Shown: one piece after another, positions 29,170 through 54,227 of the stretch
Numbering within the stretch: position 1 is the stretch's first letter
Layout: the number at the start of each line of letters is the position of its first letter
Source of the DNA: a bacterium
Lineage (GTDB): Bacteria; Bacillota; Clostridia; Oscillospirales; Acutalibacteraceae
Reading direction: 5' to 3'
Assembly (NCBI GenBank): GCA_963657065.1
Contig: CAVKLD010000003.1
Coordinates: forward strand, 1,811 to 65,810
Length of the DNA: 64,000 bases
Made by a program: the position numbers and the translations under genes
Notes under the pieces: model-generated
Seen by the model: only the letters and a program-made list of their open reading frames with translations
The model's database searches: none
Told to the model about the DNA's origin: nothing

Positions 29170-29848
29170 CGGAATTTTTGATACAACGGGAACATCGGTG
29201 ATATCGGTGACGAATTTCCTTATTTGTCTTGTTTCATCGCTTATTCTCGGCATATTGATTGCAATTATTTGCACTCGAAAAACAACGGCGTCCAAGAGTT
29301 TTACCGTTACCGCCGCGCTTATTCCCGCGATAGTCTGCGTGGTGATTATGGCAGTCAACGGCAACGTCGGCGCGGGTGTCGCCGTGGCAGGCGCGTTCAG
29401 TCTTGTACGTTTCCGCTCCGCTCCCGGCACGGCTCGTGAAATAGCCGTTCTGTTTATGGCAATGGGAACGGGAATACTTACCGGCATGGGTTACATCGGA
29501 TACGCAGTGCTTTTTACGGCAGTTATGTGCGCGGTGTTTGCCGTGCTCAATGCGACGAGCTTCGGCGAAAACGGTAAATCGCTCGAACGGACGCTCAAAA
29601 TGACTGTTCCCGAAGACGTGGATTATACGCAGGCTTTTAACGGCGTGTTTGAAAAATACACGGTCTGCCATACGCGCCTCGGCGCAAAAACCGCAGGGCT
29701 CGGCAGTTTGTTTAGACTTACTTACAGACTGACACTAAAAAATGCTGAATGTGAAAAAGCGTTTATCGACGGACTTCGTTGCCTTAACGGCAACCTTGAA
29801 ATAATTATGCACGGTACTGAAAAGGAGAGTGACAGAGATGAACTTTAA
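29153..29848 (+). CDS. DUF4956 membrane protein
   Basis: Multi-TM protein that overlaps the VTC gene by 17 nt. VTC plus DUF4956 is a recurrent gene pair in Firmicutes. Confidence 0.65.
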   Translation: MSAIFNGIFDTTGTSVISVTNFLICLVSSLILGILIAIICTRKTTASKSFTVTAALIPAIVCVVIMAVNGNVGAGVAVAGAFSLVRFRSAPGTAREIAVLFMAMGTGILTGMGYIGYAVLFTAVMCAVFAVLNATSFGENGKSLERTLKMTVPEDVDYTQAFNGVFEKYTVCHTRLGAKTAGLGSLFRLTYRLTLKNAECEKAFIDGLRCLNGNLEIIMHGTEKESDRDEL

Positions 29849-31589
29849 GAAAATAATGTGCATTCTCACGGCAGCGGCGGCGATTCTTTCATTCGCCGGC
29901 TGTGCGGAACAGGGCGCAAACACAACAACTGTTTCTTCCGCGGCATCATCCTCTTTGTCAGCGTCGGATTCATCTTCTGACGCAGACGGCGGCACGGAAA
30001 GTCTGCTTTCCGATATGTTTACCGACCGCGACATTGAAGTCGGATACGACGAGAGCACCGACACGGTGATAACTCTCTCTGACAGCGGTTCGACATGCAA
30101 AGACTCGTCAGTCACGATATCGGATAACACCGTGACTATAACGGCGGCGGGTACGTATATCCTCAAGGGAACGCTTACCGACGGCAGCATTGTGGTTGAC
30201 GCGGACAAAAGCGATAAAATCCATATTGTTCTTGCGGGCGTCAGCATCTCAAAAAGCACCACTGCACCGTTTTACGTAAAAAGCGCGGATAAGGTGTTCG
30301 TGACTCTTGCGCCCGGCACGGAAAATACTCTTGTGAATACGGGCGAGTTTACCGCAATCGATGACAACAATATAGACTCTTGCATTTTCTCAAAAGAGGA
30401 CATCACATTCAACGGTTCGGGAAGCCTTACGGTTTCGAGCGAAAAAGGTCACGGTATCGTTTGTAAGGATACTCTTTGCTTTACCGGCGGCAGCTACACG
30501 GTGACATCGACTGAGCGTCACGCGCTTTCGGCAAAGGACGACATCAGAATCATGGACGGCACGTTTGTACTCACGGCTGGCAAGGACGGACTTAACGCAT
30601 CGAACGATGATGACGCAACGCTCGGATTTATCTATATCGAGGGCGGCGATTTCAAGATAACGGCAGGCGACGACGGCATGCATGCTGAGGCGTATCTGCA
30701 CATTCTCGGCGGCAGCATAGATGTTGCGGAGTCATACGAGGGACTTGAAGGACACACGGTTGAAATTTCCGGCGGCGACATAAAGGTAAAGTCTTCCGAC
30801 GACGGTATAAACGCTGCGGGCGGCGATACTGATTCCTCCGACCCGATGGCAAAGGATGAGGAAGCGTATGTAAAGATATCCGGCGGCACGGTTTACATTG
30901 ACGCAGACGGCGACGGAATAGACTCAAACGGCGATCTCTACGTCAGCGGCGGCATCGTTACCGTGTGCGGTCCGACGAGCGGCGGCGACGGTGCTCTTGA
31001 CTACGGAGAACGTGCAACGGCGCAGATAACGGGCGGTACGGTGTTCGCTTTCGGTGCGGCGAACATGGCGGAGAATTTTAACTCCGCCGAAAATCAGGGG
31101 GTCGCGCTTGTTTCCCTTTCGGGCAGTGCGGGTGATACCGTGACAATCAAAAACAGCGACGGCGAAACGCTTGCTTCGGCTGTGTCAGACAAGAATTATG
31201 AGTGCGTGGTTGTGAGTTGCGCGGGGATGACTGAAAACGGTACGTTTACGATTACAAACGACGCCGACAGCAAGGAATTTACCCTCAGCAGCTTCATTTA
31301 CGGCGAGAGCGGCATGGGCGGTATGAACGGCGGCGGCATGAACGGCGGCGGTCAACCAGGCGGCATGAACGGCGGCGGTCAGCCCGGAGGCGGCGAGATG
31401 CCGACGGGAGAGAACGGCGAACCTCCCGAAATTCCCACGGACGAAAACGGCGAACAGCGTCAAATGCCCGACGGCGAAATGCCTGCGGGCGGCAGCGGCG
31501 AACAGAATCGTATGCCGAACGGCGGCGCGGGCGAGGAACCGCCTACGGGTGAGGACGGAAAACCGCAGCAGCCGTCAACCGAAGCGTAA
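29838..31589 (+). CDS. lipoprotein with a Cthe_2159-type beta-helix carbohydrate-binding domain and a Gly/Met/Pro/Glu-rich tail
   Basis: Lipobox ILSFAGC. MFTDRDIEVGYDES...ITLSD...VTITAAGTYILKGTL...FYVKSADKVFVTL, and repeated (S/D)DDG(I/M)(N/H)A turns as in PF14262 proteins. Overlaps the DUF4956 gene by 11 nt. Confidence 0.7.
   Translation: MNFKKIMCILTAAAAILSFAGCAEQGANTTTVSSAASSSLSASDSSSDADGGTESLLSDMFTDRDIEVGYDESTDTVITLSDSGSTCKDSSVTISDNTVTITAAGTYILKGTLTDGSIVVDADKSDKIHIVLAGVSISKSTTAPFYVKSADKVFVTLAPGTENTLVNTGEFTAIDDNNIDSCIFSKEDITFNGSGSLTVSSEKGHGIVCKDTLCFTGGSYTVTSTERHALSAKDDIRIMDGTFVLTAGKDGLNASNDDDATLGFIYIEGGDFKITAGDDGMHAEAYLHILGGSIDVAESYEGLEGHTVEISGGDIKVKSSDDGINAAGGDTDSSDPMAKDEEAYVKISGGTVYIDADGDGIDSNGDLYVSGGIVTVCGPTSGGDGALDYGERATAQITGGTVFAFGAANMAENFNSAENQGVALVSLSGSAGDTVTIKNSDGETLASAVSDKNYECVVVSCAGMTENGTFTITNDADSKEFTLSSFIYGESGMGGMNGGGMNGGGQPGGMNGGGQPGGGEMPTGENGEPPEIPTDENGEQRQMPDGEMPAGGSGEQNRMPNGGAGEEPPTGEDGKPQQPSTEA
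31301..31586 (+). repeat. low-complexity coding repeats (GMNGGGQPG units, then MP.GE-type units)
   Basis: ggcatgaacggcggcggtca is repeated at 31336 and 31363 (27-nt period). The protein reads GGMNGGGMNGGGQPGGMNGGGQPGGGEMPTGENGE... Confidence 0.8.
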
Positions 31590-33896: not shown

Positions 33897-33910
33897 ATTA
33901 AAACGCAAAA

Positions 33911-33941
33911 CCGCCGCTTCAACTGCGAAGCGGCGGTTTTT
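33911..33941 (+). terminator. intrinsic terminator of thrS
   Basis: Stem ccgccgcttc/gaagcggcgg followed by TTTTT. Confidence 0.9.
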
Positions 33942-34337
33942 GCACATGTTTATGTGCACATTGGTGCTCATAGACACAATTAACTTATGTTTTACGGCAT
34001 TTATGGCTTTAAACAAAAAAAATAACCGCCCCGGCCGCAAACTCATGACGGTTTATTTCTTAACCAACGAGGGGGCGCAACCGTCTATCAGCCGGAAACG
34101 TCCTTCGGTTGTTATTATACAACGCGACACGCAAAATGTCAACTGTTTTGCGTATTCTGTTTTAATATTCAAATTAAAAGAAGTTGCCGGCGGTGTTGTC
34201 GAGGCGGCTGTTTTTTTGTCGTGAGATGTTAGCATATTCGCCAAAAGTGTCGGATTATAAAGACAAGAAAATGCTCTTTTGTGCAAAACGCACACTTTGG
34301 ACGTTCATTTTTTGGACATAAGTTTTGGCTGCAAGCG

Positions 34338-34367
34338 TTGACAACTGTGTTTTAAATAATATATAAT
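34338..34367 (+). promoter_or_regulatory. candidate sigma-A promoter of the giant gene
   Basis: TTGACA (34338-34343), 18-nt spacer, TATAAT (34362-34367). This implies a ~300-nt 5' leader. Confidence 0.55.
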
Positions 34368-34673
34368 AGTGATGATGTAGTATGCCCGAAGTGTACCCTT
34401 TTCTTTTGGGTAACAGCGGACGGCGTATTCGTCGCATTCCGGCAAAAAATCGAGTGACGGAACCCAAACCTCACGGGGAAACATGCCGGCGGATATATTG
34501 AAGCTTCGCGCAGTGCCGTTAGGAGTTCGGAAGGACTTTTGTGTCAGTTGCGGTACGCGGTAACGGGACTTTGTATGTTTGCCGTACGCACGAGTTTCTC
34601 ACAGGGGGATAGGCTCCGAATGGGGCTTGGCTTCCCTCACTCACGAAAATACTTAAAAGGAGTGTTTTTTTAC

Positions 34674-37600
34674 ATGGAAACAAGGTATAAGCTTTCGACT
34701 AAGATCTTAAGCTCGTTTCTTGCGGTTCTGATGGCGGTGTCATGTTTTGGTATCGCTCTGCCCAATCTTGCCCCGACGGCAAGCGCGGCGGCGACAAGCC
34801 AGGACTACAAGTCGCTTGAAAACGCTTTTGACGCCGTTAAAGAAGACGACGGCAGCATCAGCGCGTCCAAGTACACCGTTACCGCCGGCGAAGACGGCGT
34901 GACGCTCATTGAGGACGCAACCTCGGACGGCAGCATCTATAAGCTCGCCGAGGCTCTGTTCAATGTTGCGAGTGCCGAAAACGGCGAGTATAAGCACAAT
35001 ACGCTTATACGCGAGCGCATCAAAACCATACTTGCAAAGAACGGCTACACGTACACTTCTTCGATGGAAGACTTTGTTAACACGCTTCTTCCCGTTGACG
35101 GAGATTACGCTACGGATTCCACGAATCCCGCGAAAGGTACGCCCAAGCTCGTTGACGCAGGCGAACCCGAAGCCGTCTACACAAAGACGCTTACGACTAC
35201 GGTTAAGGTGACGCGTTCCGAAAAGTCCGTTGTCCTCACTTACGACGACATTAACGATGTTCCCTCAAAGCTTGACCTTACCGTTAAGCTCACGACGGTT
35301 GCCGAGCCTAAAAGCTCCAAAAAAACTTTTACCGACGCTGCGGGGCTCGAGTATGGTCAGCTTTCCGAATGGTACGAGAATACATCGTGCGCGGTAGAGT
35401 ATGAACAGGCGGACACGACCGATTTCTCCGCTCTCAAAAAGTTCATGAGCTACATAAAGAGCGATTCGTTCGCGCCTTACTACGAGCAGTATTCGAATAA
35501 CGCGGACAACGTTTACACTTTCGACGCATCCGTTCTTGAAGGCTTCGAGGAGAAATTCAACGGCTACTATACCGAGTCTGTCTACGGTCTTGACAACGAC
35601 TACCTCGACAAGTACCTCACCACGGGCGAGGGCGAAACGCTCAAAACCGGTCTTGCGAACATGTCGGCTTATCAGTCGTTTGCTGTCAAGATGACTGCCG
35701 TTTACGACCCCGTCTTCAACAAGCGTTTCGTTGACTGGGCGATGAAAGGCACGTCCGTTTCGGGTTACATCGACAGAGATGCGTATCTTGCACGCGAAAA
35801 CAGCGCGGGCGAGGTGGTTGAACCCGATAAGGATACCGTCGGCAAACTCCTCGAACAGGCTAAAACGTTCAAGGATATCCTTAATGACGCTACATACAAT
35901 AATATATATGTAGAGAAGTACGGTTACGTAAACGGAACGATTGAGGATCTCATTCAGAAAATCTATGTCGCTTACCAGCATTTTACGCTCGACGGATATT
36001 TTGAAAATATCGTTTTCCGTATGGAGAACACTTCCGACAAATACTTCAATGACGACATGGCGTATTTCGGTCTTGCCGATTACGACAGCTCGAAGTATGC
36101 CGCCGGCGAGATGCCCATCACCGACGCAATGCTCGATACGGCTATCGCGTGGTTCGGTGACTTGCTTGTAAAGATTGATAATAACGAGGATTACGATGAC
36201 GAGGGCAGAGATGCCGCCGTTGCCGCCGCGGGTTCTTCAACGATAACGACCTACGCGCAGGTTGTGGATTTCTATAATAATCTTGTTGCCGAGCGTCAGT
36301 CCGAAAACCGCGAGCAGGTCAATGCCTACATCGATAACTACTACAGCTATTTCCAGAACTTTATCGACAACGCTCCCATGCTCGATACCGTCTACATGAC
36401 TAACGCTTATGCGACCGGTATCGACGAGAAAGTTAAGGAATGCGACACGGCGTATGCCGAAGCCGTTACGGCTGTCGGTGCGACTGCCGCAGCGAAGATT
36501 TTCGGTGACTACAAGGGCAGAGCCACTCGTGCAAAGGATGCGATAAAGAATGCGCTGAATGCGCGTCTGCTTGCGATGTGCCAGCTTATGGAAACGTATG
36601 CAGGCAGCAGCATTTCCGAGGCGAACTTCTCGCTTGTCAAGGCACAGTACGGTACTATTAACAATGCCATAATTCCCGCAACCGTCAACGGAACGGAAAC
36701 CACGATAAGCCTTTATCAGTGGTGCAAGAACCAGGGTTACACGGGCGCGGACAGCATATATAACAAGTATGCAAGCACCTACAACGCGCAGATAAATACC
36801 GTTATCGCAAAGAAGTTTTCTAACTTCTCAAAGATGGATCTTGCGACGAGCGGCGTATACACGGTTCGTCATGCGACGGCTCACGATATGGCGAGATACG
36901 TTGCGGGCGACGGCGCGACAGACGAACGCTATGAGTACACGGTAAACAAGGATCGCGTTAACAAGGTTATCACGAAGCTCGATACTTTCCTTACGTCGAA
37001 GAGCTTTACTCAGCTTCTCGGTGTTGACGGCGAGTCGAAATTCGGCACCGGCAGAACAATAACGAACATCTCCGATTATATCGAAGATTTACTTATCGCA
37101 AACGTGTTCAGCGACAAGGTCGTTAACTCCGTTATTGCGATGCTGTTCCCGACGATTACAGACATCCTTGATAACTTGTTTAACAACCTTCAGAGTATGC
37201 TTCCTTCAGATATGAGAGGAACCATATCGGGCGGTGCGAATGCGGCGCTCAATCTCAGTTCACTTGGCGTTAAGGTTGGTGGTTCTTTTGCAGGTGTTAA
37301 GAATCTGAGAGGTAACGGTCTTATTTTCGTTAACGGCAACAGGGGAACAACTCTTCTGTCCAAGGCTTTCAGTGATCTCGGCGTTAAGATTTATCCTACG
37401 TATTTTGCGGACGCAATCGGCAGCACCGTTTCACCGCAGCTCTATAAAGACCTCAAGAGCGCAAACCTTGACTGGAAATGGTTCGATCGCAACGGTAATA
37501 ATGACGGCAAGGTGGATGCGGAAGACTTCATCAAGCTCGATTCGAACGGCGACCCGATTCTTGATGCTAACAAGAATACGCAGCCGAAATATACCTGGAA

Positions 37601-40600
37601 CGTAACGGATTATAACAGCTTTACAAGCGCAATGGGTAGAGTTTTCAGCTCCGTTCTTCCGATACTTCAGGTTGTTCTCTGTAACTATACATATCAGACC
37701 AGTCAGATAAACAATTTGCTTTATCTCGAAATGGACAGTAGCTCAAAGGTTGATGTTACTGCACTTTGGATTACGGATGACCACAGCGTTGCCGGTACGT
37801 ACGCGTGGGCTAACGCCGCCATAAAGATGACCGGTACACAAGGGTACAACAACCTTTGGGGACCCATTATGGAGGCGGCAGGCATTACCGCAACCACTGG
37901 GGGCTATAATGTTTCGGAATCAACTCCGATTTCCACGTCGATAGGTACATCGGGCAACGGCGCAAGTGCGCAGCAGCTGGTTAACGCGCTGTTCATGCCC
38001 ATTTACGCTCTTGTGAAAAAGGTTGCAAAGCAGCCTATCGCAACCGTGATGGACATTCTCCCGAATGCGGCGTACTACGTTTCATACGGTCTTATAGAAC
38101 CCTTGCTTAAGAACATTCAGACGAGCGTTTCCGTATACGCCAACATAAGCAATATGGAGCTTAAGGGCAGTTCGATAGCAAGTATCGCTAACTGGTTCAA
38201 CGGAACGATAAAGAGTGAGATTAACAAGGTTCTCCAGCTTGAAAACATCGCAACGGTAAACGTCGGCGATCTGCTCAATCTCTCCGACCTGCTCGGCTGC
38301 GACGTCACTGACCTTAACGCGATAGCGAACATGGTTATCGGCAAGATAAGCAGCGACAGCAGCACCGACAAAAAGGTTGACATTCCTGCAATTAACGCAA
38401 GTAAGCTCGGTCACCTCGGATCTCTGTCCACAGTATCGAGTATCAGAACGGTTAACACCGCGGGAGCGGGTTCGGGCAAACGTTACACGATAAACGCCGA
38501 CCGCGCCGACGTGCTCTATGATATTCTTTCGTGGGTGCTCAAGTTCATCTCCGGCGACGGAAATCTCTCCGCTCTTTTGTCAACGTTCGGTTCGAGCGGC
38601 CTTGGCAGCGAGCTTGACAGCCTTCTCGCCGAGATAAATTCCGAAAAGGCTCTTGCCTCTCTCGTTGAGCTGTTCCTGCCCAGAGGTTTGGAAGGCAGCG
38701 GATATGACAGCGGTTATGATTTCGCAAAATATAACTGGTATCATGCATCCGAGGGCGACTGGTCATACGACGTTCCCTACACCGCTTTTGTCTATACCAA
38801 GTATGAGAATTACTGGACGAAAGAAAAAGCCGCATATCTCTTCGAAAACCTCGAAACGGTTGCAAATGACGTCCTTAAGAAGTACGCTTCGGGTCTTCTC
38901 GGAGATTACGACGGCATTAACGAATGGCTTGCCGCAAAAATCAACAGCATATTTGACAATGACAACGTCACGGGCATCGTCAAGCTGTTCACCGGCATAG
39001 GCAAACTTCTTGCCGGCAATCAGACGATAATCGACCTGCTTAAAGAGCAGATAAACGGCGGTCAGGGTGTCGACCTTGCCGCATGGTACAATACGTTCGG
39101 CTATCTCGATTACGATTACACCGCTCTTGACGAGGCTCTGGCGGTTCTCGACGATGCTGACGCGACTGATGAAGAAAAGGCAGCCGCTCTCGAAACCGTC
39201 GCTACCGCTCCGCTCAAACCCGGTCAGTCGATAACCTATACCGATGCCGACGATAAAACGCAGACGCGCACGTATGAAAATTCTTTCGATAAACTCGTCG
39301 CGACAAAGGGCGAGGACGGAAAAGTCAGCTGGACATACGACGGAAAAGCTCTTGACGGAACTGACGAGGGACGCCGCCTGTTCATGGATATCGTTTCGTA
39401 CCTTATCACTCCGGCTCTTCCCATCGTTAACATTATTCTTACCGGTGAAGATTGCACGTTCTTCGAAAACGCACTTGTCATAAAGGGTTACGACTGCTAT
39501 TCGAACGGACTTGTTCCGCTTCTCGAAATGCTCGGCGTGTCGGATCTTCCCACGACTGCGGAGTTCCACGCAATGGATGCGCAGACGGGACTCAGCACAA
39601 TATTCAACAAGCTCTATGACTACGTGACTTATCTTCTTACTGCCGACGAAGACGGTACTACCATTCAGAAGATAGTCGGTATTCTTCCGAGATTGTTCTA
39701 CTTCCTTCAGAGCGACGGACTCTCGGCTATGCTCAAGAACCTTATTCAGCCTCTTTGGGTTCTCATCGATACGGTTCGCCCGATAGCCGACGTGGATCTT
39801 GACGGGTTCCTTCATCAGTTCCTTTGCGACTATCTCGGCCTTGCCTACGACAAGAACGCCGAAGACTACAAGGTCGGTGCAGTGGTTCAGCTTGTTATGA
39901 ATCTCCTTAGCAAGAACAAGCTCGAAAAGACATACACCGACGCGCAGATAGCCGCCGACAAGGAAAAAGTGGACGCTATCTACACTCTCTCGATTGAAGA
40001 TCTCAGCCTTACTTCCATCTTTACGGTCGTAAGCCTCATGTTCGATATCGACCTTACTCCGCTCGCATATGCGTTCGAAGGCATGTGCATCAGCTACACT
40101 GAAAACGGCGAAGATTATGGTATCGTGTCTTTCGAATCCAAGAGGGGCGAAACGGATTACACCGTTAACTACTCCGGCGCGGATATTATCACTGTTGTTG
40201 TTTCCGTTCTTCTTGACGTGCTCCGCTACGGCGATAACGCGAAAGGCTTCGACAAACTCTTTGGCTTCGTTAAGGAAAGATCTGACCGCGAGGGCGTTGA
40301 AATCACAGCTGCGGGACTTCTTGAAACAATTCAGGCAGTATTCACCGACAAGCCGTTCGACCTCGGCAAACAGCCCAACTGGGACTATATCCTTGAGGGC
40401 AAGGACGTTAAGCGTTCCGACGGCAGCTCTTCCGTGTGGGTCGACATTGACGCCGACAGCACGGACTATGCGGCACTTCTTCCTTTCAACAACGAAGACA
40501 TGAGCGCATACCATTCCATTTATAATCTTCAGTACTTCACCGACTGGACGGAAGATACGGCGAAGAGCACCGTTACAATGCTTTCAAACGTTCTCGACTA

Positions 40601-43600
40601 CGTCGCGGGTCTTCTTAAAAAGTCCAACGGTCAAAACGCGTTCAGCTTCAAGGATTACATCGACGATCTCCTCGAAAGCAAGGTGTTCAACGGCAAGACG
40701 CTCAAGAGCCTTGCGGATCTCATGTGCAAGATATACAACGCTCTTCCCGAGTCGGCTGTCGCGCTTATCGACAAACTGCTTGACACAAGCGTTACCGAGT
40801 GGAGAGATGCGTATCTTGAAATCGACGAAAACAATACTTACGTTCCCAAAACCGACCATGTTTGGTGGGCGGATGAAACGCTTGCCGGTTACGTAGACAC
40901 TACCGATGAGTTTATCAAAGCTCTGCATGAGCTTCTTGATCCCGCATCCAAGGTCTTTGCGTGGGTGCTGCTCGATCAGGATATTAAGCTGTTCTACACC
41001 TACGGCAAGGGCGTCAATCAGGAAGGCTACGGCGACGACGCTGTAATTCTCGACGGTATCGGCCTTTACACCAAGGCGTTTATCCCGGTACTTGAGGCTC
41101 TCGGCTACACCGACCTTGAACACTTCGAATTCAAGGACGGCTCAAAGCACAATGTCACCACGGCTCACTATGAAGAAGCCGTTACGGATGAATCCGGCGA
41201 TATCATAATGGGATTCAAGCTCAAAGAAGACGCCGACTTCACATATGATTTCGTCGAGATGCTCGCGAAAATCATTGAAGACATTACCCGCGATCCCATA
41301 AACTGGATTCTCGACAGACTTCCCGGTTTTATCTACTTCATCAACGCAAACGGCTTTACCACAATCGTTGAGAACGTATTCGATTCCGTCGGCGACGTTA
41401 TCGACATCATCAATACGCAGCTCAGCGCAGACAGTCAGATAAGCCTTGCATCCATCGCGAAGATAATCAACGAAAAAGTCGGTTCGGAAGTAACCGACAT
41501 CACCGGCACACTGGACGACGAGCTTAACGGCAAACTTGTGATTGACTTTGATACGATTATTTCTCTTATCGAAAAATTCACAGGCATTCACTTCGACTCC
41601 GTGCTTGTTAAATTCATGAAGAGCCTCAACGTCGGCAAACTCGTAGCGTTTACTTCGGGCAACGGCAGACAGTCCTTCACGATGCAGTATTCCGATACGG
41701 AAGAAAAGCACGACATGGTGACAATCATCCTTGCGCTTCTCCTCGAAATCCTTGAGGGTAAGGGTACCGATGCGGAAACGGGCGTTGAATACGACAACCC
41801 CGCAGCTATCGATAAGCTCATTACCAAAGAAGACGAAGAGAATAAGGGCACGGTAAGCTCCATTATCAATGCCATAAAGAATCCTTCCGATGTTATCGAG
41901 AAGGAAATGAACTGGAACTATTTCGATGAAGAGATGGTTATCGCGGAGAAAGAGGGCGGCGATACTGCCGGTCAGACCGTTACCATCCCCGCTTACAAGT
42001 TCCTCTACCTCAACTACACCACCGACTGGACGAGAGATAAAGCAAAGTCAGTCAAGGAAAGCCTGAACGACCTCGTTCTTGCGGTCCTCAAGATGACGGG
42101 CAGCAAGTATGCCGACGCGACGGACGTTTCCGCAGTCGTAAACGACCTGCTCAAACTCGACAAATTCTACACCGCCGAGAACCTCAATACGGTGCTCAGA
42201 CTGCTTGCGGATAACCTCTACGGTGTAAATGCCATTATTCCCAACGCGCTCTCCGAATTTGCGGGCGCACTCCTCGGTGCGGACATCACCTCGTGGAATT
42301 ACAAGTATTCGTTCGAAACGGTAGACTCCGTCGATGGTTTCAATGAACCCGACGACACCGGTCTTTACTGGAAAGAGGGCGAAATCAGCACAAACGAGCG
42401 CGTGACCGACGAGAACGGCGACCCCGTTGTCGACGAAGACGGCAACACCGTATATAAGACGAGGACGGGTATCGTTTACGCTGTCAGAACGGATGAAAAC
42501 GCGAGAGCGGACTTCATCAATGGCGTAAATCTCATCGTTGAGCCTGCATACAGACTCATTGAATGGCTTCTTCTCGGTTCGGATTATACTTTCTTCAACG
42601 CTCAGAAGAGCGAAGGTCTTGACGAACTCGAAAACGAGATTCACCCCGCACTCATCACCCTTAAGGGCGCGAACGGCTACGGCGAGGCGTTGGGTTATTT
42701 CCTCGAAGCTCTCGGCTGCGTAGGCGGCAACTGCCAGCTTAAAGCTGCAAGTTACTACAGCTACACCGAAGTACAAAACGGTCAGAACGTTACGCTTTAC
42801 AAGACGAAAGAGCTTGTCAACGACATCCTTACGGTTCTTTGCAACAGAGTAGACAAGATAGTCGCCGACCCCGTTTATGAAATAGCCGGAATGATTCCCG
42901 AGCTCCTCTATTTCATCAACGCAAACGGTTTGAGCGTCGTTGTAAACAATCTCCTCGGCGGAGTGCTCGACCTCATCGGTTCGGATGCTGTCAAGAACCT
43001 CACCGGCAAGAACCTCAACATCAACGACCTTGTCACCGATATTCTCCGTAAATCTCTCAACAACAGCGATATTACATTTGATATCGACGGCATCAACATT
43101 CAATACATCTTTGAGATCGCCGAAAAGCTCACCGGCCTTTCGATTAACGATGCAATAGGTTCAAACCTTAAGTACTTCTACATGGGCGACCTCCAGAGTT
43201 ACTCCTCCGCAAGCGGCAAAATAGCTTACAGACTCGTGTTCAGCGAGAATGATTTGACGAGCGGCGGCAACGGTCAGCTTCAGGACTTCATCACGATTCT
43301 TCTTTCGATGGTCGTGGATGTGCTCATGTACAAGCAGAACGCTGCGACTATAGTCAGCCTTGCGAATATTGACATCAGCGTTGAAGTTATCGAAGGCATA
43401 GTTGAGTTCCTCAAGGAAGGCTTCGAAGTTAACACTCTTCCTTACGACTGGTTCTATTTCGATGACAGCCTGACAAAATATGAAATCGATTCCGAAACAG
43501 GCAAGCTCGTCGTGAAGAAAGATGAACCTCATATAGATGAAACTACCGTCGCTGTTATTCCCGCAAAGACGACAATGAGCTACCTTAAGTACGCTTCGGA

Positions 43601-46600
43601 CTGGACGGAAGAAACAGCAGAGTACATCTATCAGAACCGCAATGAAATCATTAAGTCCGTGCTTCGCATTATGAAAGCGGATTCCACGGATCTCGGCGCA
43701 ATCATCAGCGATAAAGTAAACCTCGAAAAGACTCTCTACACTGCCGAAAACCTCAACAAGATACTCAATCTTGTTAAGCCCACGCTCGGCAAGATAGACG
43801 ACACTCTTCTTAGCTTGCTTAACATCGCGATTGATATTGACCTTTCCTCTCTCAAGAATATGGAGGAATTCACGGATGAACAGATTACCGGCAGAACGTC
43901 GTTCGTCAACGGCCTTTGCTCGATAATTCAGCCGCTGTCCCCCATCCTCGATTGGCTGCTGTTCGGCAACGCCATCGAATACTTCGACAAGAAGGATTAC
44001 GATACGGGTAAGGTTGAAACTCTCATCTCGCTGCCCGGCTCGAACGGCTACCTCAACGGACTTGTTCCGCTGCTTGAGGCTCTCGGCGTAATTCTTCCCA
44101 AGTACGAGGAAGGTCAGACAACAAAAGACGTGTTGTATGTTCTTATAAACAACACGCTTGCAAGAATCGAAGGCATTCTCGCTAACCCCGTGGACGAAGC
44201 TCTCGCACTTATCCCCGAACTTCTCTACTTCATCAATGCAAACGGTCTTGCAACCTGCATCAACAATATGCTCGCAGGCGTGGTTGCTCTCCTCGAAAAG
44301 ATCAATCCCGCTCTCGGCGACAATGCGATTGAGCTTCAGACGCTCCTCAACAAGGTTCTCGAAGGCGCAAACGTCAATCTTGATCTCTCCAAACTCGACC
44401 TCCTTGCAATCGCGGGCGTTATCGAAGAAGCTACCGGCATTGAAATTACCGACATCTTCACCGAAACGAAGATCGATAAATTCTACTTCGGCACGATAGT
44501 TCACAATAAGGATTCCGCAGATCCGACGAACGTAAGCTTCAAGATGGTTTACTCCGAGGACGAAGGTCCCGAAGATATGCTTACTTTCATAGTGAACCTT
44601 GTAATAGAGATACTTCTCTATAAGGACGAAGAAAAAGGTTACGACAATGCGAAGGCTATCGACATTATTATCAACGGCAAAGACCCGATAACCGGCGAAC
44701 CTATGAAGAGCACCGTTCAGGCGGTAGTCAACATTCTCCTCGGCATAAAGAACGTTGAGAAGATTGACCTTAACTGGAATTACTTTGATGAGTCGGCGAC
44801 GCTTTCGGACGAAATTACCGTTCCCGCAAATGCATTCGTTTACCTCAACTATTCCAACGACTGGACCTATTCCAAGGCGGCGTACCTTGACGAGAATCTC
44901 GACAATATCATTGTTGAAGCTCTCAAGCTCCTTGGCAAGGACGTTGACAATGTCGGCGATCTTATCAACATCGACCTTAACGGTTTCATGAACGCCGATA
45001 CGCTTAATAAGCTCCTCGACACACTCAAAAACTTCCTCTACGGCGAAAACTCCGTGCTCGACGATACACTCTTTGAGCTTGTGGGACTTGTGCTCGGCGC
45101 AGATCTCACGCAGTGGAGAGATAGTTACAGATTTGAGGTTTACGATGAAGCGAATACCTATGAAGGCACCGAATACGGTCTTTCCTACAGAACGGTTGAC
45201 GGTGTTAAGACTTATGCCATTGGTTCTCCCGACAACTTCGCGGACGGTCTTGCGGTTGTTCTTCAGCCTGCGGAAAGACTTCTCGGCTGGCTCCTTATGG
45301 GCGAAAGCTACGGATTCTTCGTTGACAACAAGACCGGCAACGTCGATGCAAACGGCGTCCGTCAGAACGGTGAACTCATCAAGATAACCGGCGCGGACGG
45401 ATACGATGCGGCTCTTACCGTTCTCCTTGAAGCTCTCGGCTGCACAGGACTTAAGAAAGCGGATGAATACGCTAACTGCGGCGAAATGCTCTCTGCGGTC
45501 ATTAAGTCGGTCGTTGCCAGAATCGGCGAAATTCTCAAAGATCCCGTAAACGAAGTATTCGCTCTTATCCCCGAGCTTATCTACTTCATAAACGCCGGCG
45601 GACTCAATTCTGTCGTGAATAACCTTGCGGGTGCGGTCGTTGCGCTGCTCAAGGAAGCCGAACCTCTTACAGGCAAGGCGGTCGACATTGATACGCTTAT
45701 TACCGGCGTTATCAAGAATGCTCTCGGCAGCAAAGCTCCCGATGACTTCAAGTTCACTCTCGAAGGCGTTAACCTTCAGTGGGTTATCGAATTTGCGGAA
45801 ATGTTTACCGGTATCGAAATAAGCGAAGCAATCGGCTACGGCCTTGAAAAGTTCGCTCTCGGTGTCGTTGAAAAATACGAATCCGCTTCGAGCTACTACA
45901 ACGAAACGTACAAGATGCACTTCGCAGCCGATCACGACGGCGATGATTACGCTCGCGACAGAGCCGACCTTATAACGATTCTGTTCAGCGTTGTGCTCGA
46001 CGTTCTCGAATATGACCCCGAAGGCAATGAGGCATATCCGAATGCCGACGCTCTCGCAAAACTTATCAACAACGATAAGGTTTCCGCGGATACGGTGAAG
46101 AGCATAATCAAGATTCTCAAGGGGTATGTCATCGACGGCGTTAAACCTATCGACTGGTTCTACTTCGATGAGGATAAGACGGTTTACACAACGGATGCGG
46201 AAGGCAACCGCGTTGTTAAGAATCCGCTTCCCGAATTTGACGAGAACTCCGTAAAGAACGTTCCCGAAAACACTATCAATTATCTCACCTATGCTTCCGA
46301 TTGGAATAAGGATACCGCACAGTATCTCGATAACAATCTTGACGCGATCGTTGCGGAGGTTCTTACCCTCATGGGCAAGGGCAACACAACCGTTGCCGAG
46401 ATAATCGCAGACAAGTTTGACTTTACCGATCTTTACAGTGCGAACAACCTTAACAAGATGGTCAAGGCTGTCAAGGGTCTTACCGATCAAATAGGCGAAA
46501 CATTCACCAACATGGTCGGCATGATTCTCGGCGCGGATCTCACCGCTTACTCTACGATGAAGTTTGCCGATGACGAGATAACCGACAGAGAGTCATTCGT

Positions 46601-49600
46601 AAACGGTCTTGTTACGGTTCTCACTCCTGTTACTCCTCTCCTTGACTGGCTGCTCTTCGGCAATTCGCTTCAGTTCTTCTCCGCCAAAGACACGCCTGTT
46701 TCCACGGACGTTAAGGATCTTATCAACATCACCGGATATGAAGGATATGCAACGGGTCTTGTACCGATTCTCGAAGCTCTCGGTGTGGAAAATCTTCCCG
46801 AGTGCAGCGGCGTCGACACAGTAACCGAAATTCTCAAGGATGTTGTTGATTCCATTCTCGCAAGAATCGAAGGCGTTCTTGCCGACCCCGTAGACGAAGT
46901 TCTCGGACTTATCCCGAATCTCCTCTACTTCATCAATGCCAACGGTTTGTCAGCATCCGTTCAGAACCTCCTCGGTGCTGCTTTCGGACTTCTCGACACC
47001 GTTAACCCGATACTCGGCGACAAGAAGATAGATGTTAACGCAATCATTAACGATCTCCTGTCGAAAAACAATATCGAAGCCGCCGTTGATATCGACAATC
47101 TCGACCTCCTTGCCATAGTCAAGGTTGTTGAAGGCGCAACCGGTCTTACCATAGCCGACGTCGTTACGGAAAACAAGATTGACAACTTCCGTCTTGGCAA
47201 CATCGAGTACTTCCGTTCCTCCAACGGCAAAGCGGCGTTCAGAATGAGATATTCCGACACGCAGGGCAGAATCGATATGATAACCGTACTCGTCAACTTC
47301 CTCATCGAGGTTGTAACAACAGGCGAAAATGCTGCGGCTCTCGAGAATCTGCTTAAACTCGACGCGGGAACGATTACCAAGGTAGTCGGTGTCCTCACAG
47401 GCAGTGATACGGACTTTGCTTACAAGGCATTCAATTGGAACTACTTCGATAAAACCGTCGATCTCAACAATGCGGTTACCGCAGTTCCCGAATATTCGTT
47501 TGTATACCTCAACTATGCAAACGACTGGACTTACGACAAGGCGGTATATCTCGACAGCGGTCTTAACGCTCTCGTTAACAGCGTTCTCAAGCTGCTTGGC
47601 AAGGATGTAACCGTTGAAGAGCTTATCGCTCAGACGGTCGACCTCAACACGCTGGTATTCAACGCCGACACGCTTAACAAGCTGCTCAATACCGTTTCCG
47701 GATTGTTCTACGGCGAGAACGCGGTTATAGGTCAGCACCTCGGCGAGGTTGCGGGTCTTATACTCGGCGGTGAGCTTGCACAGTGGAATGACAACTATTC
47801 CTTCGCGGCTTACGACGCATCGACTGAATACCTTACCGATGGCATTACGGGACTCAAGTACGTCGTTGACAACGGAAAGGCTATCTTCGCGATAGAAAAC
47901 TCCGATGACTTCATCGCAGGTCTTTGCAAGATACTTAATCCTCTCCACAAGATTCTCGGTTGGCTTCTTCTCGGTGACAGCTATGAGTTCTTCGTGAAGA
48001 ATACAATCAACGAAGACGGTACTCAGGATACAATCCTCAAGATACCCGGCAAGAAGGGTTATGCAAACGGACTTTCCTACCTCCTTGAAGCTCTCGGCGT
48101 CAAGAATCTCAAGTCCGAATACGCGGATGCCGACGCACTTCTCAAAGACGTTCTTACGCAGATCGTTGCAAGAGTTACCGAAATTCTTGCGAACCCGATT
48201 GACGAAGTCCTTGCGCTTATCCCCGAAATCATCTACTTCATAAATGCAAACGGCCTCGGCGTGACGGTTTACAACCTTACTTCCTCCGTGATGAACATTT
48301 ATGATACCGTTAAGAAGACGGGTCTTCTCGACAGCATCGAGCAGATAAAGAACTACAGCACGGGTGAAGAGCTTGTCAACGGTCTTGTTGACAGCATCAT
48401 CAAGGATAAGGTCAGCGCGGATCTCACATTCACGCTCGACGGCATTAACCTCGAATGGATTCTCAAGGTTGTTGAAACCGTAACCGGACTTGATCTCCGC
48501 AGCCACATCAACTCCCTTGAAAAGTTCGCTATCGGCGAAGTTTATAAGTATGAATCCGTATCCGGCATCAATGCTTATAAGATGCGCTTCGGCAAGTCGG
48601 GCGACGGCAGCGACAATCTCCGCGACAGAGCGGACATGATAACCATTGTTTTGAGTTATGTCATTGACCTTCTCACGATTGAACAGAATCAGACGAAGAT
48701 CGAAGAAATGGCAAACCTCAACGCAGGCACTGTTGCCTCCATACTTGCACTCCTCTCCGAGAAGAAGTACGAAATCGGTGTTGACGTTAAATGGTTCTAC
48801 TTCGATCCGGATGTAGACGTTAAAACGATTGATTCCGAAACCGATCTTAAGGAATTTACTCCCACTATAAACTACCTTACTTATCAGTCCGCCTGGACGG
48901 AGCAGCTTGCTGATTATCTCAGCACAAACCTTGATGATGTCATTGCAAATATTCTCGACATCGCTGGTAAGGGCGATACCACGGTTGCTCAGATAGTAAA
49001 GGATATGTTTGATCCCGAAACGGATCTCTATACCGCAGAGGTTCTCAATAAGCTTGCAAACGGCATTTCGAGCCTTGTTTCCAAGGTTGACGAAACGCTT
49101 ACCGGCACGCTTGGCATCCTTCTCGATGTTGACCTCGGCGCGTATGCGAAGATGGACTTCGGCACGGGCAGAGTAGGTAAGGATGGCTTCATCGAAGGCA
49201 TCTGCGAAATCGTCAAGCCCCTCTCTGGCGTTCTCGATTGGCTTCTGTTCGGCGACGCGTACGACTTCTTCAGCAACGAAAAGACGGGCGTTCAGAATCT
49301 TCTGACAATCAACGGCTACAGCGGTTATGCTTACGGTCTTGTACCTCTCCTTGAGGCTCTCGGCGTTGCACTTCCCGACGTTTCGGCGGAGGCAAATACC
49401 GAAAACACCGTAAACGGTCTTGTTACCGCTCTTGTCGACAGAATCGAAGAAATTCTCGTTGACCCCGTAAACGAAGCTCTCGCACTTATCCCCAACATTC
49501 TCTACTTCATCAACGCCAACGGTCTTGCAAGCGCAGTCAATAACCTTCTCGGCGCGGCTGTCGGACTTGTCGACAGATTCAACGAGGAAAATCTTGTTGA

Positions 49601-52600
49601 AAAGCTCGGTCTTAACCTTGACCTTGACGGCGACGGCGTAAACGATACGAAGATAGATCTCAACGGTCTTATCAACAAACTTCTCAAGGACAACGGAATT
49701 GGCGCAACGGTTGATATCAAGAATATAAACCTCTTGTCCATAATCAGCGTTGTCGAAGCTGTTACCGGACTGGATCTTACGACGTTTGTAAGAGAGAACG
49801 GCATTGAAAACTTCTACCTCGGTCAGATAACCTACTTCAAGTCGGCAAACGGCTCCGCAGCATTCAAGATGGAGTACTCGTCCGATAAGAACAAAGACAG
49901 ATCCGACCTTATCACCGTTGTTGTTAACTACCTCCTTGAGGCAGTCCTCTACAAGAATGAAGAAACCGGTGCGGACAACGCAAAGGCAATCGACATTCTC
50001 ATAAACGGCAAGAACGATGACGGAACACCCAAGAAGAACACCGTCGGAGCTATCGTCGAAATGCTCGGCAAGCTCGGTACAAAGGCTCTTCCCGGCGATT
50101 ACCACTGGAACTACATGAACGAAGACAGTGACGACGTAACGCCCGAATCCGAGTACAGCGAAATTGTTCTTCCCGCAACTCCGTTCAACAATTACCTCAC
50201 CTACTGCACGGATTGGACGCAGAACACGGCGGATTACCTTTACGATAATCTCGGCACAGTCGTAGATGCCATCATTAAGATGACCGGCAACGGCGATACG
50301 CTTGCAGACTTCGTAAACGGCAAATTCACACTCTACAAGGCTGAGTATCTCAACAAGATTCTCGACGCTGTCAAGAAGCTCTACAACCTTGCAGATACAA
50401 AGGTTCTTAAGCTCCTCGGTCTTGTTGTTGACTGCGACCTCACCAAGTGGGACGGCATGAAGTTCGAAGATGCAGACATCACGGATGCGGCTACATTTGC
50501 AGCCGGCATTACGGAAATAGTCGAACCCGTATACACGCTTCTCGACTGGCTCCTGTTTGGCAAGGACTACGGCTTCTTCGTAGACGATAAGACCGGCAAC
50601 ACGGGCGCAGACGGCAAGACGCTCCTTAACATCGCGGGCGCGGACGGCTACATCAACGGCCTTGCTCCCCTCTTCATCGCTCTCGGCGTTGACCTTCCCG
50701 AATACGCGGCCGGTTACACCTGCAAGACGATGGTCGATGTCGACGGTGTTCAGATGACATTCTTCAGCGCGGTTATCAAGTCCGTACTCGCAAGAGTCGA
50801 CGAGATACTCGCAAGTCCCGTAAACGAAGCGCTTGATCTTCTTCCCGGACTTCTCTACTTCATCAATGCAAACGGTGTTTCCACCGCAGCATACAATCTC
50901 CTCGGCGGCGTTCTCAACGCGGTTAACGTGCTTGTCGAAAACAACATTATCAGCCTTGGCGGAACATCTGTCGAAGAATATGTTGAAACAAAGCTCGGTC
51001 TTAACGTTAAGGACCTCGACCTTGAAGGCATAGTTAAGTTCCTCGAGAACAAGAACATCACCAAGGGCATCAAGATTTATGATGTATTCAATGGTATTTA
51101 CAATGTCGATGAAAACGGCAGCGTAACGTTTACTCCCGATGCATCCGCAGACGGCAACATTCTTGAAAAGTTCTACTGCGGCGAGGTCACGTCCTACACC
51201 TACTCCGGCGTCAACGGCTGGCAGATGGTTACAAAGACGGGCGAAGGACGCGGCGACATGATTACAACGCTCCTGAGCATTGTCCTCGAAGTTCTGTTCT
51301 ACGAAAGCAACGAACAGCCGATAACCGATATCGTTGCAGGCATGATCGACGGCTTCACGGTTGAAAACTTCAGAAATCTTAAGGCACTCCTTGCAACGGG
51401 TGTTAACCTTGAAGACGCTATGAAGGATATCGACTGGGTATATTTCAACAAATACGCAACCGACGCAGAGCGCGAAGAAGCACTGAAGAAAGTTCTCCTC
51501 GATCCATCTTCAAACGTTCTTCCCGCAACGCAGCCCGAACGTACTACACATTATCTTGAGTACGACAATAACTGGAACAAGAAGACCGCGGAGTACATTG
51601 ATGATAACATCGTTTCAATAGTCGACCTCGTTATAGCCAAGTTCGTTGACGGTTCCGACAGTCTTACAGACTTAATCAACAACAACCTCAACATCTATTC
51701 CGACGATGTTGCGAACAAGATACTTGCAAAGATCGGCAGCCTGCTTCAGAAGCTCGACGACAGCCTTGTTGATACGATAGGCGTTGTTCTCGACGCGGAT
51801 CTCAACGCTCTCACCGCTCCCGTAAGCGGCGTGACCGACAAGACAACATTCGTTGCGGCTCTTGCAAACAGACTTTCCAACATTGGCAATGTTCTCGATT
51901 GGCTCCTGTTCAATCAGCAGATGACATTCTTCACCGACCTTGAAACAGGCGCTCAGGCGAAGATAGTTCTCAACGGCGGCGAAGGCTACAAGTACGGTCT
52001 TGCACCTATCCTTGAAGCAATCGGTGTTAATACTCACATTACTGTTCCCGCTCCGGCGGCAGGTACGACGATTACCGCTCGTGTTCTTGTTGAACTTCTC
52101 ACGAACGTTTGCGACAGAATCGACGAAGTTCTCGCAAATCCGATAGACGAAGTTCTCGCACTTCTTCCCGAGCTTATCTACTTCATCAATGCAAACGGCG
52201 TAAGCGTGTCTGCAATGAACCTTGTAGCTCCCATCGACGTACTGCTCAAGGAAGTTGGCTCGAATATCGGCAAGAATGACCTTGACTTCTCAAGCCTCGT
52301 CAAGTTCGATATCTCCAACCTCGACTTCGAAGGCATATTCGCTATCGTTCTTGACAAGACCGGCATCGACGCCCAGTCCCCGATAGGCGAATATCTCGCG
52401 AAGTTCTACTTTGGACAGCTTGAATCCTATCAGTCTTACGACGGCATTCAGGGCTTCAGAATGGTTTACTCCGAGACGGAAAAACGCTACGAGTTCGTAA
52501 CCGTTCTTGTGACACTCCTTCTCGACGTTGCTTCTTACGAAGGCAACAAGGACGCCATCATCAAGCTCCTCGGCAACAACGAAAAAGCTGAATCCATCTA

Positions 52601-54227: not shown

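What the first reader, a model, noticed from the sequence alone, without database searches (positions are those of the whole stretch)
37080..53830. Module architecture: at least 11 tandem ~440-aa units, with the centre organised as an alternating A/B two-module super-repeat
Every unit has the same motif order. (1) W.YFD, then a 20-40 aa variable stretch, then YL.Y..DWT...A.YL..NL. (2) LYTAENLNK(I/L)L. (3) a (W/Y)-containing linker. (4) F..GL....P....LDWLLFG..Y.FF. (5) I.G..GY..GLVPLLEALGV. (6) DPV(D/N)E(A/V)LALIPELLYFINANGL...V.NLLG. (7) KF(Y/A).G...Y.S......(F/Y)(K/R)M.YS. (8) (R.)D(M/L)(I/L)T(I/V)(L/V)... The YFINANG anchors are spaced 1626, 1635, 1575, 1317, 1356, 1344, 1308, 1269, 1353, 1323 and 1236 nt apart. 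Units opening with NWNYFD (41913, 44775, 47436) alternate with units opening with DWFYFD/KWFYFD (43449, 46155, 48792), and each subtype has its own linker and C-terminal consensus. For example, the A type has L(T/A)QW(R/N)D.Y.F..YD and RADLITI; the B type has F.DE(Q)ITGR.SFVNGL and KIDKFYFG...DM(L/I)T. So the evolutionary unit appears to be an ~880-950-aa A+B dimer (A-to-A spacing 2862 and 2661 nt). Copies are conserved at the protein level but differ at many synonymous sites, and I saw no long identical DNA runs. That argues for old duplications kept by selection rather than a recent expansion or an assembly artefact.
Basis: seen in the sequence. Interest (0 to 1): 0.8.

Follow-up and report, generated by a model that had tools for sequence, protein, structure and literature searches.

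The report
Giant modular secreted protein, A/B super-repeat
The region is the repeat core of one intact gene for a 717-kDa secreted protein built from twelve related ~430-residue helical modules. The protein belongs to an unnamed family found only in gut and rumen Clostridia, and it grew by copying a two-module block long ago.

Summary
Observation confirmed; interpretation supported. Window 34674-54227 (+) is one gene of 6,517 codons: Sec signal peptide, ~730-aa head, 12 homologous modules (one degenerate, 11 clear), and a ~100-aa basic tail ending in a strongly amphipathic helix.

Modules are 20-48% identical in protein and 41-58% in DNA. The longest exact shared DNA run is 28 nt, and synonymous sites between copies are saturated. 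It is therefore neither an assembly artefact nor a recent expansion.

Modules U3/U5/U7 (A) and U4/U6/U8 (B) form two clades (97% bootstrap each) with matching internal branching. Five relatives only ~40-50% identical keep all 12 positions as orthogroups (A clade 100%, B clade 96%). Three 8-module relatives have one A+B pair and lack U5-U8. The two-module block was the unit of expansion.

dN/dS against a syntenic relative is 0.09-0.20 in every module.

The module has no Pfam, NCBIfam, PHROGs, PADLOC, PDB-sequence or Foldseek match. A profile search found 593 representative relatives with 2-15 matched module stretches, all unnamed, in Oscillospirales (Acutalibacteraceae, Oscillospiraceae, Ruminococcaceae) metagenome-assembled genomes (MAGs).

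Function is inferred, not shown: an acidic extracellular fibre or tether held at the envelope by its C-terminal helix.

The parts
34338..34367 (+). Candidate promoter of the giant gene (TTGACA-18 nt-TATAAT, 12/12 consensus match). It lies in a ~130-nt block almost invariant between the window and the relative L063.
34674..54227 (+). Giant gene: 6,517 codons plus stop. The product is 717 kDa with pI 4.3. The real start is ATG 34674, preceded by an AAGGAG ribosome-binding site.
34674..34787 (+). Sec-type signal peptide (METRYKLSTKILSSFLAVLMAVSCFGIALPNLAPTASA|AAT). It is the only transmembrane-like segment in the protein. The AxA cleavage motif is conserved across the family.
34788..36863 (+). 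Non-repeat N-terminal head (~690 aa after cleavage). It has no known domain.
36864..38702 (+). Module U0, degenerate (HMM E 2e-15).
38703..40379 (+). Module U1 (with long inserts).
40380..41912 (+). Module U2.
41913..43448 (+). Module U3, type A (NWNYFD start, strand-rich insert).
43449..44774 (+). Module U4, type B.
44775..46154 (+). Module U5, type A.
46155..47435 (+). Module U6, type B. This is the module modelled alone: pLDDT 74.9, pTM 0.75, 55% helix, 8% strand.
47436..48791 (+). Module U7, type A.
48792..50105 (+). Module U8, type B.
50106..51434 (+). Module U9 (lacks the insert; groups with the B clade).
51435..52676 (+). Module U10.
52677..53927 (+). Module U11, the terminal module. 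It is recognisable as the last module in nearly all family members.
53928..54224 (+). Conserved ~100-aa basic tail (pI 8.1).
54147..54224 (+). C-terminal cationic amphipathic helix FVKFFKSILDFFKKILAFFQKMFKTK. Its hydrophobic moment of 0.64-0.66 is at the 99.9th percentile for this protein. It is conserved family-wide.

Best explanation
**Shown.** The region is the repeat core of a single intact, selectively maintained gene (34674-54227). The gene encodes a 6,517-aa Sec-exported protein of an unnamed family specific to Oscillospirales.

The protein's layout is: signal peptide, ~690-aa head (after signal-peptide cleavage), 12 homologous modules (each mostly helical with 2-3 short strand hairpins), then a ~100-aa basic tail.

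The array grew in its centre by tandem duplication of a two-module block. The block is an A module carrying a strand-rich insert plus a B module without it. The growth took an 8-module form (0-1-2-A-B-9-10-11) to the present 12-module form. These duplications are older than the split of lineages that are now only ~40-50% identical. Every module has been under purifying selection since.

**Inferred.**
- The conserved residues of the module are almost all aromatic, aliphatic, Gly or Pro, so the module is a structural building block rather than an enzyme.
- The mature protein is a very acidic, elongated extracellular fibre or tether whose length is set by module number.
- After the signal peptide is cleaved, the protein stays at the cell envelope through its basic tail and terminal cationic amphipathic helix. 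The helix would lie in the outer face of the membrane or bind anionic wall polymers.
- The faster-evolving head and first modules are the distal, interacting end.
- The A/B alternation keeps neighbouring modules less alike (mean 34% identity) than next-neighbours (mean 43%). In other tandem-domain proteins this pattern is thought to limit misfolding between adjacent domains.
For: **Gene and modules.** One ORF, 12 module hits.

**Duplication history.**
- A and B clades with matching topology.
- Positional orthogroups across six proteins.
- 8-module relatives lacking exactly U5-U8.
- A distant relative (P0011) has its own separate alternating pair repeated three times, so pair-wise expansion recurs in the family.

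**Age and selection.**
- pS between copies is 0.62-0.76 and the longest shared DNA run is 28 nt.
- dN/dS is 0.09-0.20 in every module against the syntenic relative L063.
- 62 sequences in the 90% cluster of that closest relative (P0002); the 15 listed are 6,546-6,572 aa, so module number is stable.

**Export and retention.**
- A conserved signal peptide with an AxA site is the only hydrophobic segment.
- Every module has a net charge of -24 to -51, while the tail has pI 8.1 and ends in one of the most amphipathic helices in the protein (99.9th percentile).
- The tail is ~100 aa in nearly all relatives, and the FFxKIxxFFxxLF ending is conserved even in distant ones.
- There is no LPXTG motif.

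**Structural role.**
- Over 594 modules from 150 proteins the conserved positions are W, Y, F, L, G and P plus a few E, N, D, T and S. There is no conserved His, Cys, Lys or Arg.
- The single module folds with pTM 0.75.
- In the two-module model each module folds (pLDDT 70-88), but the junction is below 50 and pTM falls to 0.48.

**Polarity.** Amino-acid identity to the relative rises from 61-70% in U0-U2 to 85-90% in U5-U10.

**Expression signals.** A perfect consensus promoter sits in a conserved block, followed by a good ribosome-binding site.
Against: - There is no experimental or annotation evidence for location or function. Every relative that carries a name is called 'hypothetical protein'.
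- No recognised wall-anchoring or adhesive domain is present.
- The amphipathic helix could instead drive oligomerisation or act as a sorting signal.
- The structure models rest on alignments of only 8-11 paralogous rows. The low confidence at the junction may reflect that shallow alignment rather than real flexibility.
- No partner genes are conserved around the gene.
- The 'elongated fibre' shape was not measured, because the tools return no model coordinates.
Confidence: 0.6

Rival explanations
1. The protein is released rather than anchored. It would act as an extracellular matrix, biofilm or coat scaffold, with the C-terminal amphipathic helix bundling several chains together instead of binding the membrane.
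For: - Signal peptide and no covalent anchor motif.
- Very acidic composition, typical of matrix and coat proteins.
- No partner genes.
Against: - The tail is the only basic part of the protein, and its helix is rich in Phe and Lys like in-plane membrane anchors.
- In one distant member (P0135) the C-terminal segment is plainly hydrophobic and looks like a membrane tail anchor.
- Nothing here separates this rival from the main reading decisively.
Confidence: 0.2
2. Each module is a ligand-binding or catalytic unit, for example for plant or host polysaccharide. The array would then be a multivalent binding or processing machine rather than a passive spacer.
For: - The hosts are gut and rumen fibre-associated Oscillospirales.
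- The window carries glycoside-hydrolase and carbohydrate-binding genes nearby.
- Conserved motifs (DPV(D/N)E, YFINANG, LLEALG) include some polar residues.
Against: - No match to any carbohydrate-active or binding family in Pfam or NCBIfam.
- No fold match to solved structures; best TM-score is 0.14.
- Conserved positions are overwhelmingly of the hydrophobic-core type, with no conserved His, Cys, Lys or Arg.
- The nearby carbohydrate genes are not conserved neighbours in relatives.
Confidence: 0.12
3. The repeat array is an assembly artefact or a very recent expansion: collapsed or duplicated reads, or a pseudogene.
For: Giant repetitive genes are often mis-assembled. The same species' public assembly breaks this gene at a contig end.
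Against: - Copies are only 41-58% identical in DNA, and the longest shared run is 28 nt.
- The frame stays open for 19.6 kb.
- dN/dS is 0.09-0.20.
- The 12 modules are collinear in independent assemblies and in distant relatives.
Confidence: 0.01
4. The protein is a secreted toxin or effector delivered by a giant carrier, of the polymorphic-toxin type.
For: Large size, export signal, and a variable N-terminal part.
Against: - No toxin, Rhs/YD, peptidase or immunity-gene signature in the protein or beside it.
- The C-terminus is the most conserved end, not a variable toxin tip.
Confidence: 0.03

Closest known systems
Titin and nebulin super-repeats (eukaryotic giant muscle proteins) - comparison from general knowledge, not tested here
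   Same: Long tandem arrays of homologous domains grew by duplicating multi-domain blocks. Domains at equivalent positions in successive blocks are therefore more alike than neighbours. Here next-neighbours average 43% identity and neighbours 34%.
   Different: Different domain (Ig/Fn3 or nebulin repeats of 35-100 aa, versus a ~430-aa helical module), different kingdom, intracellular. There is no sequence or fold relation.
Staphylococcal SasG/Aap (alternating G5 and E domains) and Ebh (alternating FIVAR and GA modules): giant Gram-positive surface rods - from general knowledge
   Same: Sec-exported proteins of Gram-positive bacteria built from an alternating two-part repeat. The repeat makes a long surface rod whose length depends on repeat number. 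Ebh is also helical and very large.
   Different: Those repeats are 50-130 aa and belong to Pfam families, none of which matches here. SasG and Aap are sortase-anchored through LPXTG, which is absent here. Here A and B are diverged copies of one module, not two unrelated domains.
Giant genes of Oscillospiraceae and other Clostridia surveyed by West-Roberts et al. (bioRxiv 10.1101/2023.11.21.568195)
   Same: Very large repetitive predicted proteins from mammalian-gut Clostridia known only from metagenomes.
   Different: Those are described as arrays of RCC1, Listeria-Bacteroides repeat, YG-repeat, dockerin and leucine-rich repeat domains, which are beta-rich known families. The present protein has none of them.
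C-terminal amphipathic-helix membrane anchors, e.g. E. coli PBP5/PBP6 - from general knowledge
   Same: An exported protein with a cleaved signal peptide is held on the outer face of the cytoplasmic membrane by a terminal amphipathic helix. The tail here has the same character.
   Different: No homology. Anchoring is untested here. The cargo is about 15 times larger.

Membership tests
Any curated protein family (Pfam-A, NCBIfam) | Score at or above the family's curated cut-off | tested here: not met
   There were no hits above cut-off for the head, U0-U2, U5+U6 or U10-to-tail. The best were sub-threshold chance hits. The same held for five relatives scanned whole.
Sortase-anchored Gram-positive surface proteins (LPXTG type) | C-terminal LPXTG-like motif followed by a hydrophobic segment and a basic tail | tested here: not met
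   No [LIS]Px[TSA]G motif occurs anywhere in the protein. The only hydrophobic segment of membrane-spanning strength is the N-terminal signal peptide.
Cellulosomal scaffoldins and dockerin-bearing proteins | Cohesin and/or dockerin domains | tested here: not met
   There is no Cohesin or Dockerin_1 hit at E<=1. One DxNxDG-like loop pair at 37485-37577 is a resemblance only.
Ebh/SasC-type helical repeat adhesins (FIVAR, GA, DUF1542) | Pfam FIVAR, GA or DUF1542 repeats | tested here: not met
   No hits.
Phage or plasmid-borne structural proteins (e.g. tape measure) | Match to a PHROG family, or presence in phage or plasmid records | tested here: not met
   The only hit is a sub-significant one to phrog_305 (E 0.0035, no stretch passing). 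tblastn of U6 finds nothing in 50,697 phage and 72,556 plasmid records. The gene's neighbours are chromosomal housekeeping genes.
Known anti-phage defence proteins | Match to a PADLOC model | tested here: not met
   No hits.
Any solved protein fold | Sequence match to PDB chains, or Foldseek match with E<=0.001 or TM>0.5 | tested here: not met
   The profile search against PDB sequences gave a best E of 0.064 and the head gave none. Foldseek of the U6 model gave a best E of 0.13 and TM 0.13-0.14 against PDB, and E 0.32 against BFVD. The two-module model gave a best E of 0.095. No AlphaFold DB library was available.
The unnamed Oscillospirales giant-protein family defined here | Signal peptide + head + at least 2 of these modules + terminal module + ~100-aa tail with an FFxKIxxFFxxLF ending | tested here: met
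   The profile search found 593 representative proteins at E<=0.001 and 369 at E<=1e-30, with 2-15 matched module stretches. Architecture and termini are shared. Hosts are Acutalibacteraceae, Oscillospiraceae and Ruminococcaceae MAGs from rumen and gut.

The most novel reading that the evidence does not exclude
The ~430-residue module is a fold with no solved or curated relative. Gut Oscillospirales string 4 to about 14 copies of it into a new class of very acidic surface fibre of more than 250-800 kDa. The fibre is held by a new kind of C-terminal amphipathic-helix anchor rather than sortase, SLH or choline-binding domains. The A+B pair is not only the unit that was duplicated but also the mechanical or structural repeat of the fibre. 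Pair-wise expansion arose independently at least twice in the family.
Probability: 0.3. Interest if true: 0.7.

Novelty: new variant of a known kind. Interest (0 to 1): 0.55.

Why it matters
Giant tandem-domain surface proteins are a known kind, and block-wise ('super-repeat') growth is known from titin and from some staphylococcal adhesins. What is new is the building block. It is a large helical module with no curated family, no solved relative and no literature. It sits in about 600 sequence clusters confined to uncultured gut and rumen Oscillospirales, where these are among the largest genes in the genome.

The family is a clean natural case for studying how repeat proteins lengthen:
- 8- and 12-module forms differ by exactly two A+B blocks.
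- Positional orthology is preserved down to ~40% identity.
- A second, independent pair expansion exists in a distant member.

If the protein is a surface fibre, it is probably a major factor in how these abundant but little-studied bacteria contact fibre, mucus, phages or other cells. It would also add a new anchoring mode for Gram-positive surface proteins.

The case also shows a practical gap. Word-indexed homology search almost missed the family entirely, and the public short-read assembly of this species breaks the gene at a contig end.

Tried and rejected
- **Family and fold searches.** None of these gave a hit: Pfam, NCBIfam, PHROGs and PADLOC on the head, modules and tail, and Pfam on five relatives; PDB sequence search with the module profile and with the head; Foldseek of both models against PDB and of the U6 model against BFVD, where only generic helical-solenoid noise appeared.
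- **Word-indexed homologue search.** It found only 1 fragment with U6 as query and 3 with the module alignment, so it gave no usable alignment partners. The exhaustive profile search was needed.
- **Internal duplication within a module.** The first half against the second half of the family profile gave hhalign probability 10%. Rejected.
- **Conserved operon partners.** Five loci with different neighbours showed none. One relative (P0022) sits among cell-envelope glycopolymer genes, which is suggestive only.
- **Mobile-element origin.** There was no phage or plasmid match.
- **Known RNA element in the ~300-nt leader.** Rfam found none.
- **Small ORFs in the upstream intergenic region.** Nothing convincing.
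- **Off-register module pairs for the two-module model.** MAFFT slid them by one module, so the alignment has only four informative in-register rows. The low confidence at the junction is therefore weak evidence.
- **Literature.** Searches found no description of the family.
Full report
**1. What is at the coordinates**

The window has one open reading frame from 34539 to 54227 on the + strand (translation). The true start is ATG 34674. It follows an AAGGAG ribosome-binding site and gives the N-terminus METRYKLSTK..., matching the METR/METK starts of relatives.

The product has 6,517 residues, a mass of 717 kDa and pI 4.3. The finding's span, 37080-53830, is the repeat core of this gene.

Neighbouring genes are ordinary chromosomal ones:
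- Threonyl-tRNA synthetase lies upstream.
- A radical-SAM activase and a methionine ABC transporter lie downstream on the other strand.
- NAD biosynthesis genes, glycoside hydrolase family 123 and other genes lie further away.

**2. Check of the observation**

All quoted anchors and spacings are correct.

A profile built from the units finds 12 consecutive modules from residue 776 to 6462. Eleven are strong (E 3e-107 to 2e-159). The first, U0, is degenerate (E 2e-15).

| Measure | Value |
|---|---|
| Module length | 414-613 aa |
| Pairwise protein identity | 20-48% |
| Pairwise DNA identity | 41-58% |
| Best DNA repeat families | 60-76% over 65-163 nt |
| Longest exact run shared by two units | 28 nt |

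Tandem Repeats Finder reports nothing relevant.

This does not affect the conclusion.

**3. A/B alternation and the unit of duplication**

*Within the window.* In a neighbour-joining tree of the 11 clear modules (402 trimmed columns, 500 bootstraps):
- U3, U5 and U7 form one clade (97%).
- U4, U6 and U8 form another (97.4%).
- The internal branching matches: (U3,(U5,U7)) and (U4,(U6,U8)).

*Across relatives.* I extracted modules from five relatives that are only about 30-55% identical to the window protein. In a 65-module tree:
- Each of the 12 positions forms its own orthogroup (bootstrap 51-100).
- The A clade has 100% support and the B clade 96%.

*Module order in relatives.*
- Seven proteins (the window protein, P0002-P0006 and P0179) share the order 0-1-2-A-B-A-B-A-B-9-10-11.
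- P0008, P0009 and P0013 have 0-1-2-A-B-9-10-11. That is one A+B pair, lacking exactly U5-U8. P0013 is cut at its N-terminus and starts at module 1.

The two-module block was therefore the unit of expansion. The expansion predates the divergence of these lineages.

A distant member, P0011, shows a separate alternation of two other module types repeated three times. Pair-wise growth therefore recurs in the family.

*What distinguishes A from B.* The main structural difference is an insert after the 'DL..W' motif. It is about 30 aa in U2, U5 and U7 and longer in U1 and U3. In the U5 model it forms a small strand-rich element. It is present in U1, U2, U3, U5 and U7 and absent from U4, U6 and U8-U11.

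**4. Age and selection**

- Between paralogous modules the proportion of synonymous differences is 0.62-0.76, which is saturated.
- Against the syntenic relative L063 (protein P0002), dN/dS is 0.09-0.20 in the head, in each module and in the tail.
- 62 sequences fall in the 90% cluster of that closest relative, P0002. The 15 listed are 6,546-6,572 aa, so module number does not vary among them.

An assembly artefact, a pseudogene and a recent expansion are all excluded.

**5. The family**

The module, the head and the tail match nothing in Pfam, NCBIfam, PHROGs or PADLOC. Five relatives scanned whole also match nothing. There is no relative among PDB sequences.

An exhaustive profile search of 1.84 billion representative proteins found:
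- 593 relatives at E<=0.001 and 369 at E<=1e-30.
- Lengths up to 7,691 aa, with 2-15 matched module stretches.

Every member that carries a name is called 'hypothetical protein' from Clostridia metagenome-assembled genomes (MAGs). In species-representative genomes the hosts are Acutalibacteraceae, Oscillospiraceae and Ruminococcaceae MAGs from rumen and animal or human gut. There is no phage or plasmid match.

The shared frame is: signal peptide, a head of 700-1,900 aa, module 0, usually module 1, a variable centre, a recognisable terminal module, and a tail of about 100 aa.

No neighbouring gene is conserved. I found no paper describing the family. The one survey of giant Clostridia genes describes different, beta-rich repeat types.

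**6. Anatomy that bears on mechanism**

- **Export.** The only hydrophobic segment of membrane-spanning strength is the N-terminal signal peptide. Its AxA cleavage motif is conserved in relatives.
- **Charge.** Every module is strongly acidic (net -24 to -51). The tail is basic (pI 8.1).
- **Tail helix.** The tail ends in FVKFFKSILDFFKKILAFFQKMFKTK, one of the most amphipathic helices in the protein (99.9th percentile). The ending is conserved in distant relatives.
- **No LPXTG motif** is present.
- **Conserved positions.** Over 594 modules the conserved positions are aromatic, aliphatic, Gly or Pro, plus a few E, N, D, T and S. There is no conserved His, Cys, Lys or Arg. This points to a structural module.
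- **Single-module model.** AlphaFold2 on U6, with the 11 paralogues as its alignment, gives pLDDT 74.9 and pTM 0.75, with 55% helix and 8% strand. The model has no Foldseek match in PDB or BFVD.
- **Two-module model.** Each module is folded, but the junction has pLDDT below 50 and pTM is 0.48. The junction covers the end of one module, the W.YFD motif and the variable stretch. The alignment for it was shallow, so this is only weak evidence for flexible joints.
- **Polarity of divergence.** Identity to the relative rises from 61-70% in U0-U2 to 85-90% in U5-U10. The N-terminal part is the fast-evolving end.

**7. Most likely mechanism (inferred)**

- The protein is exported by Sec and its signal peptide is cut off.
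- The acidic chain of helical modules extends from the cell.
- The basic tail and its cationic amphipathic helix hold it at the membrane outer face or on anionic wall polymers.
- Module number sets the reach.
- The head and first modules form the variable interacting end.

None of these steps was tested. The main rival is a released, self-associating matrix or coat protein. A multivalent binding or enzymatic array is less likely, and a toxin reading is unlikely.

**8. Comparison with known systems**

- The growth pattern works like the super-repeats of titin and nebulin.
- It also resembles the alternating repeats of staphylococcal SasG/Aap and Ebh.
- The proposed retention works like the C-terminal amphipathic anchors of PBP5 and PBP6.

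These comparisons rest on general knowledge. Membership of each family that could be tested was tested and not met. The protein is best filed as a new domain family within the known kind 'giant tandem-domain secreted proteins'.

**9. Verdict**

- Function remains inferred.
- Interest is moderate to fairly high. The family is large, is restricted to an important gut clade, and lacks any annotation or detectable structural relative. Its general kind, however, is familiar.

Noticed in passing
window 43161-46490 (-), 46950-50105 (-), also 38763-40514 (-), 42048-43103 (-): Very long antisense ORFs (up to 1,109 aa) lie inside the giant gene, in codon register with it. They are shadow ORFs. The sense strand uses TTA 3 times, CTA 0 times and TCA 24 times in 6,518 codons, so the antisense frame has almost no stop codons. 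They are not genes.
   Followed up: yes
window 34260-34400, including the palindrome TGTGCAAAACGCACA at 34280-34294: The promoter region and the first ~40 nt of the leader are almost invariant between the window and relative L063, although synonymous sites in the gene differ by dS ~0.5-1.5. A perfect inverted repeat sits ~45 nt upstream of the -35 box and could be a regulator site. Further conserved blocks lie in the ~300-nt leader. Rfam finds no match there.
   Followed up: partly
window 34114-34142 (-) and hairpins at 33907-33940 and 34129-34153: A second perfect consensus promoter (TTGACA-17-TATAAT) points leftwards, towards the thrS terminator hairpin. It might drive a short transcript of ~200 nt, or it may be a chance match. 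No convincing small ORF was seen.
   Followed up: partly
window 34674-54227 compared with L063 606-20309: Synonymous divergence falls steadily along the gene, from dS ~1.4-1.5 in U0-U2 to ~0.5 in U8-U10, and rises again in the tail. This suggests recombination between lineages within the gene, or region-specific constraint on the DNA.
   Followed up: no
window 54228-54606 compared with L063 20309-22897: The relative carries two extra genes (DUF2238 and a metallophosphoesterase) between the giant gene and the radical-SAM gene. The window has only ~380 bp there, so this is an indel at the 3' flank.
   Followed up: no
window 37485-37577 (module U0): The sequence DRNGNNDGKVDAEDFIKLDSNGDPILDANKN looks like a pair of calcium-binding loops of the EF-hand or dockerin type. 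A similar DRNGDGVVTSADL occurs in the head of relative P0102. There is no Pfam dockerin or EF-hand hit.
   Followed up: partly
protein P0011 (5,020 aa; distant family member): Its centre alternates two other module types three times (best matches to window modules U6 and U10 in turn). This is an independent two-module super-repeat.
   Followed up: partly
locus L066 (GCA_963645085.1, contig CAVISA010000081.1): This public assembly carries an identical copy of the downstream radical-SAM protein and so looks like the same species. It breaks the giant gene at a contig end, leaving a 3,668-aa fragment. Module counts taken from short-read MAGs will often be underestimates.
   Followed up: no
window 3273-3417 (+): Ribosomal protein L10 leader (Rfam RF00557, 63.7 bits). 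It is the only Rfam match in the window.
   Followed up: no
window 28402-31589 (+): A VTC-domain protein, a DUF4956 protein and a Cthe_2159-type carbohydrate-binding protein lie in a row upstream of thrS. This three-gene group was not examined further.
   Followed up: no
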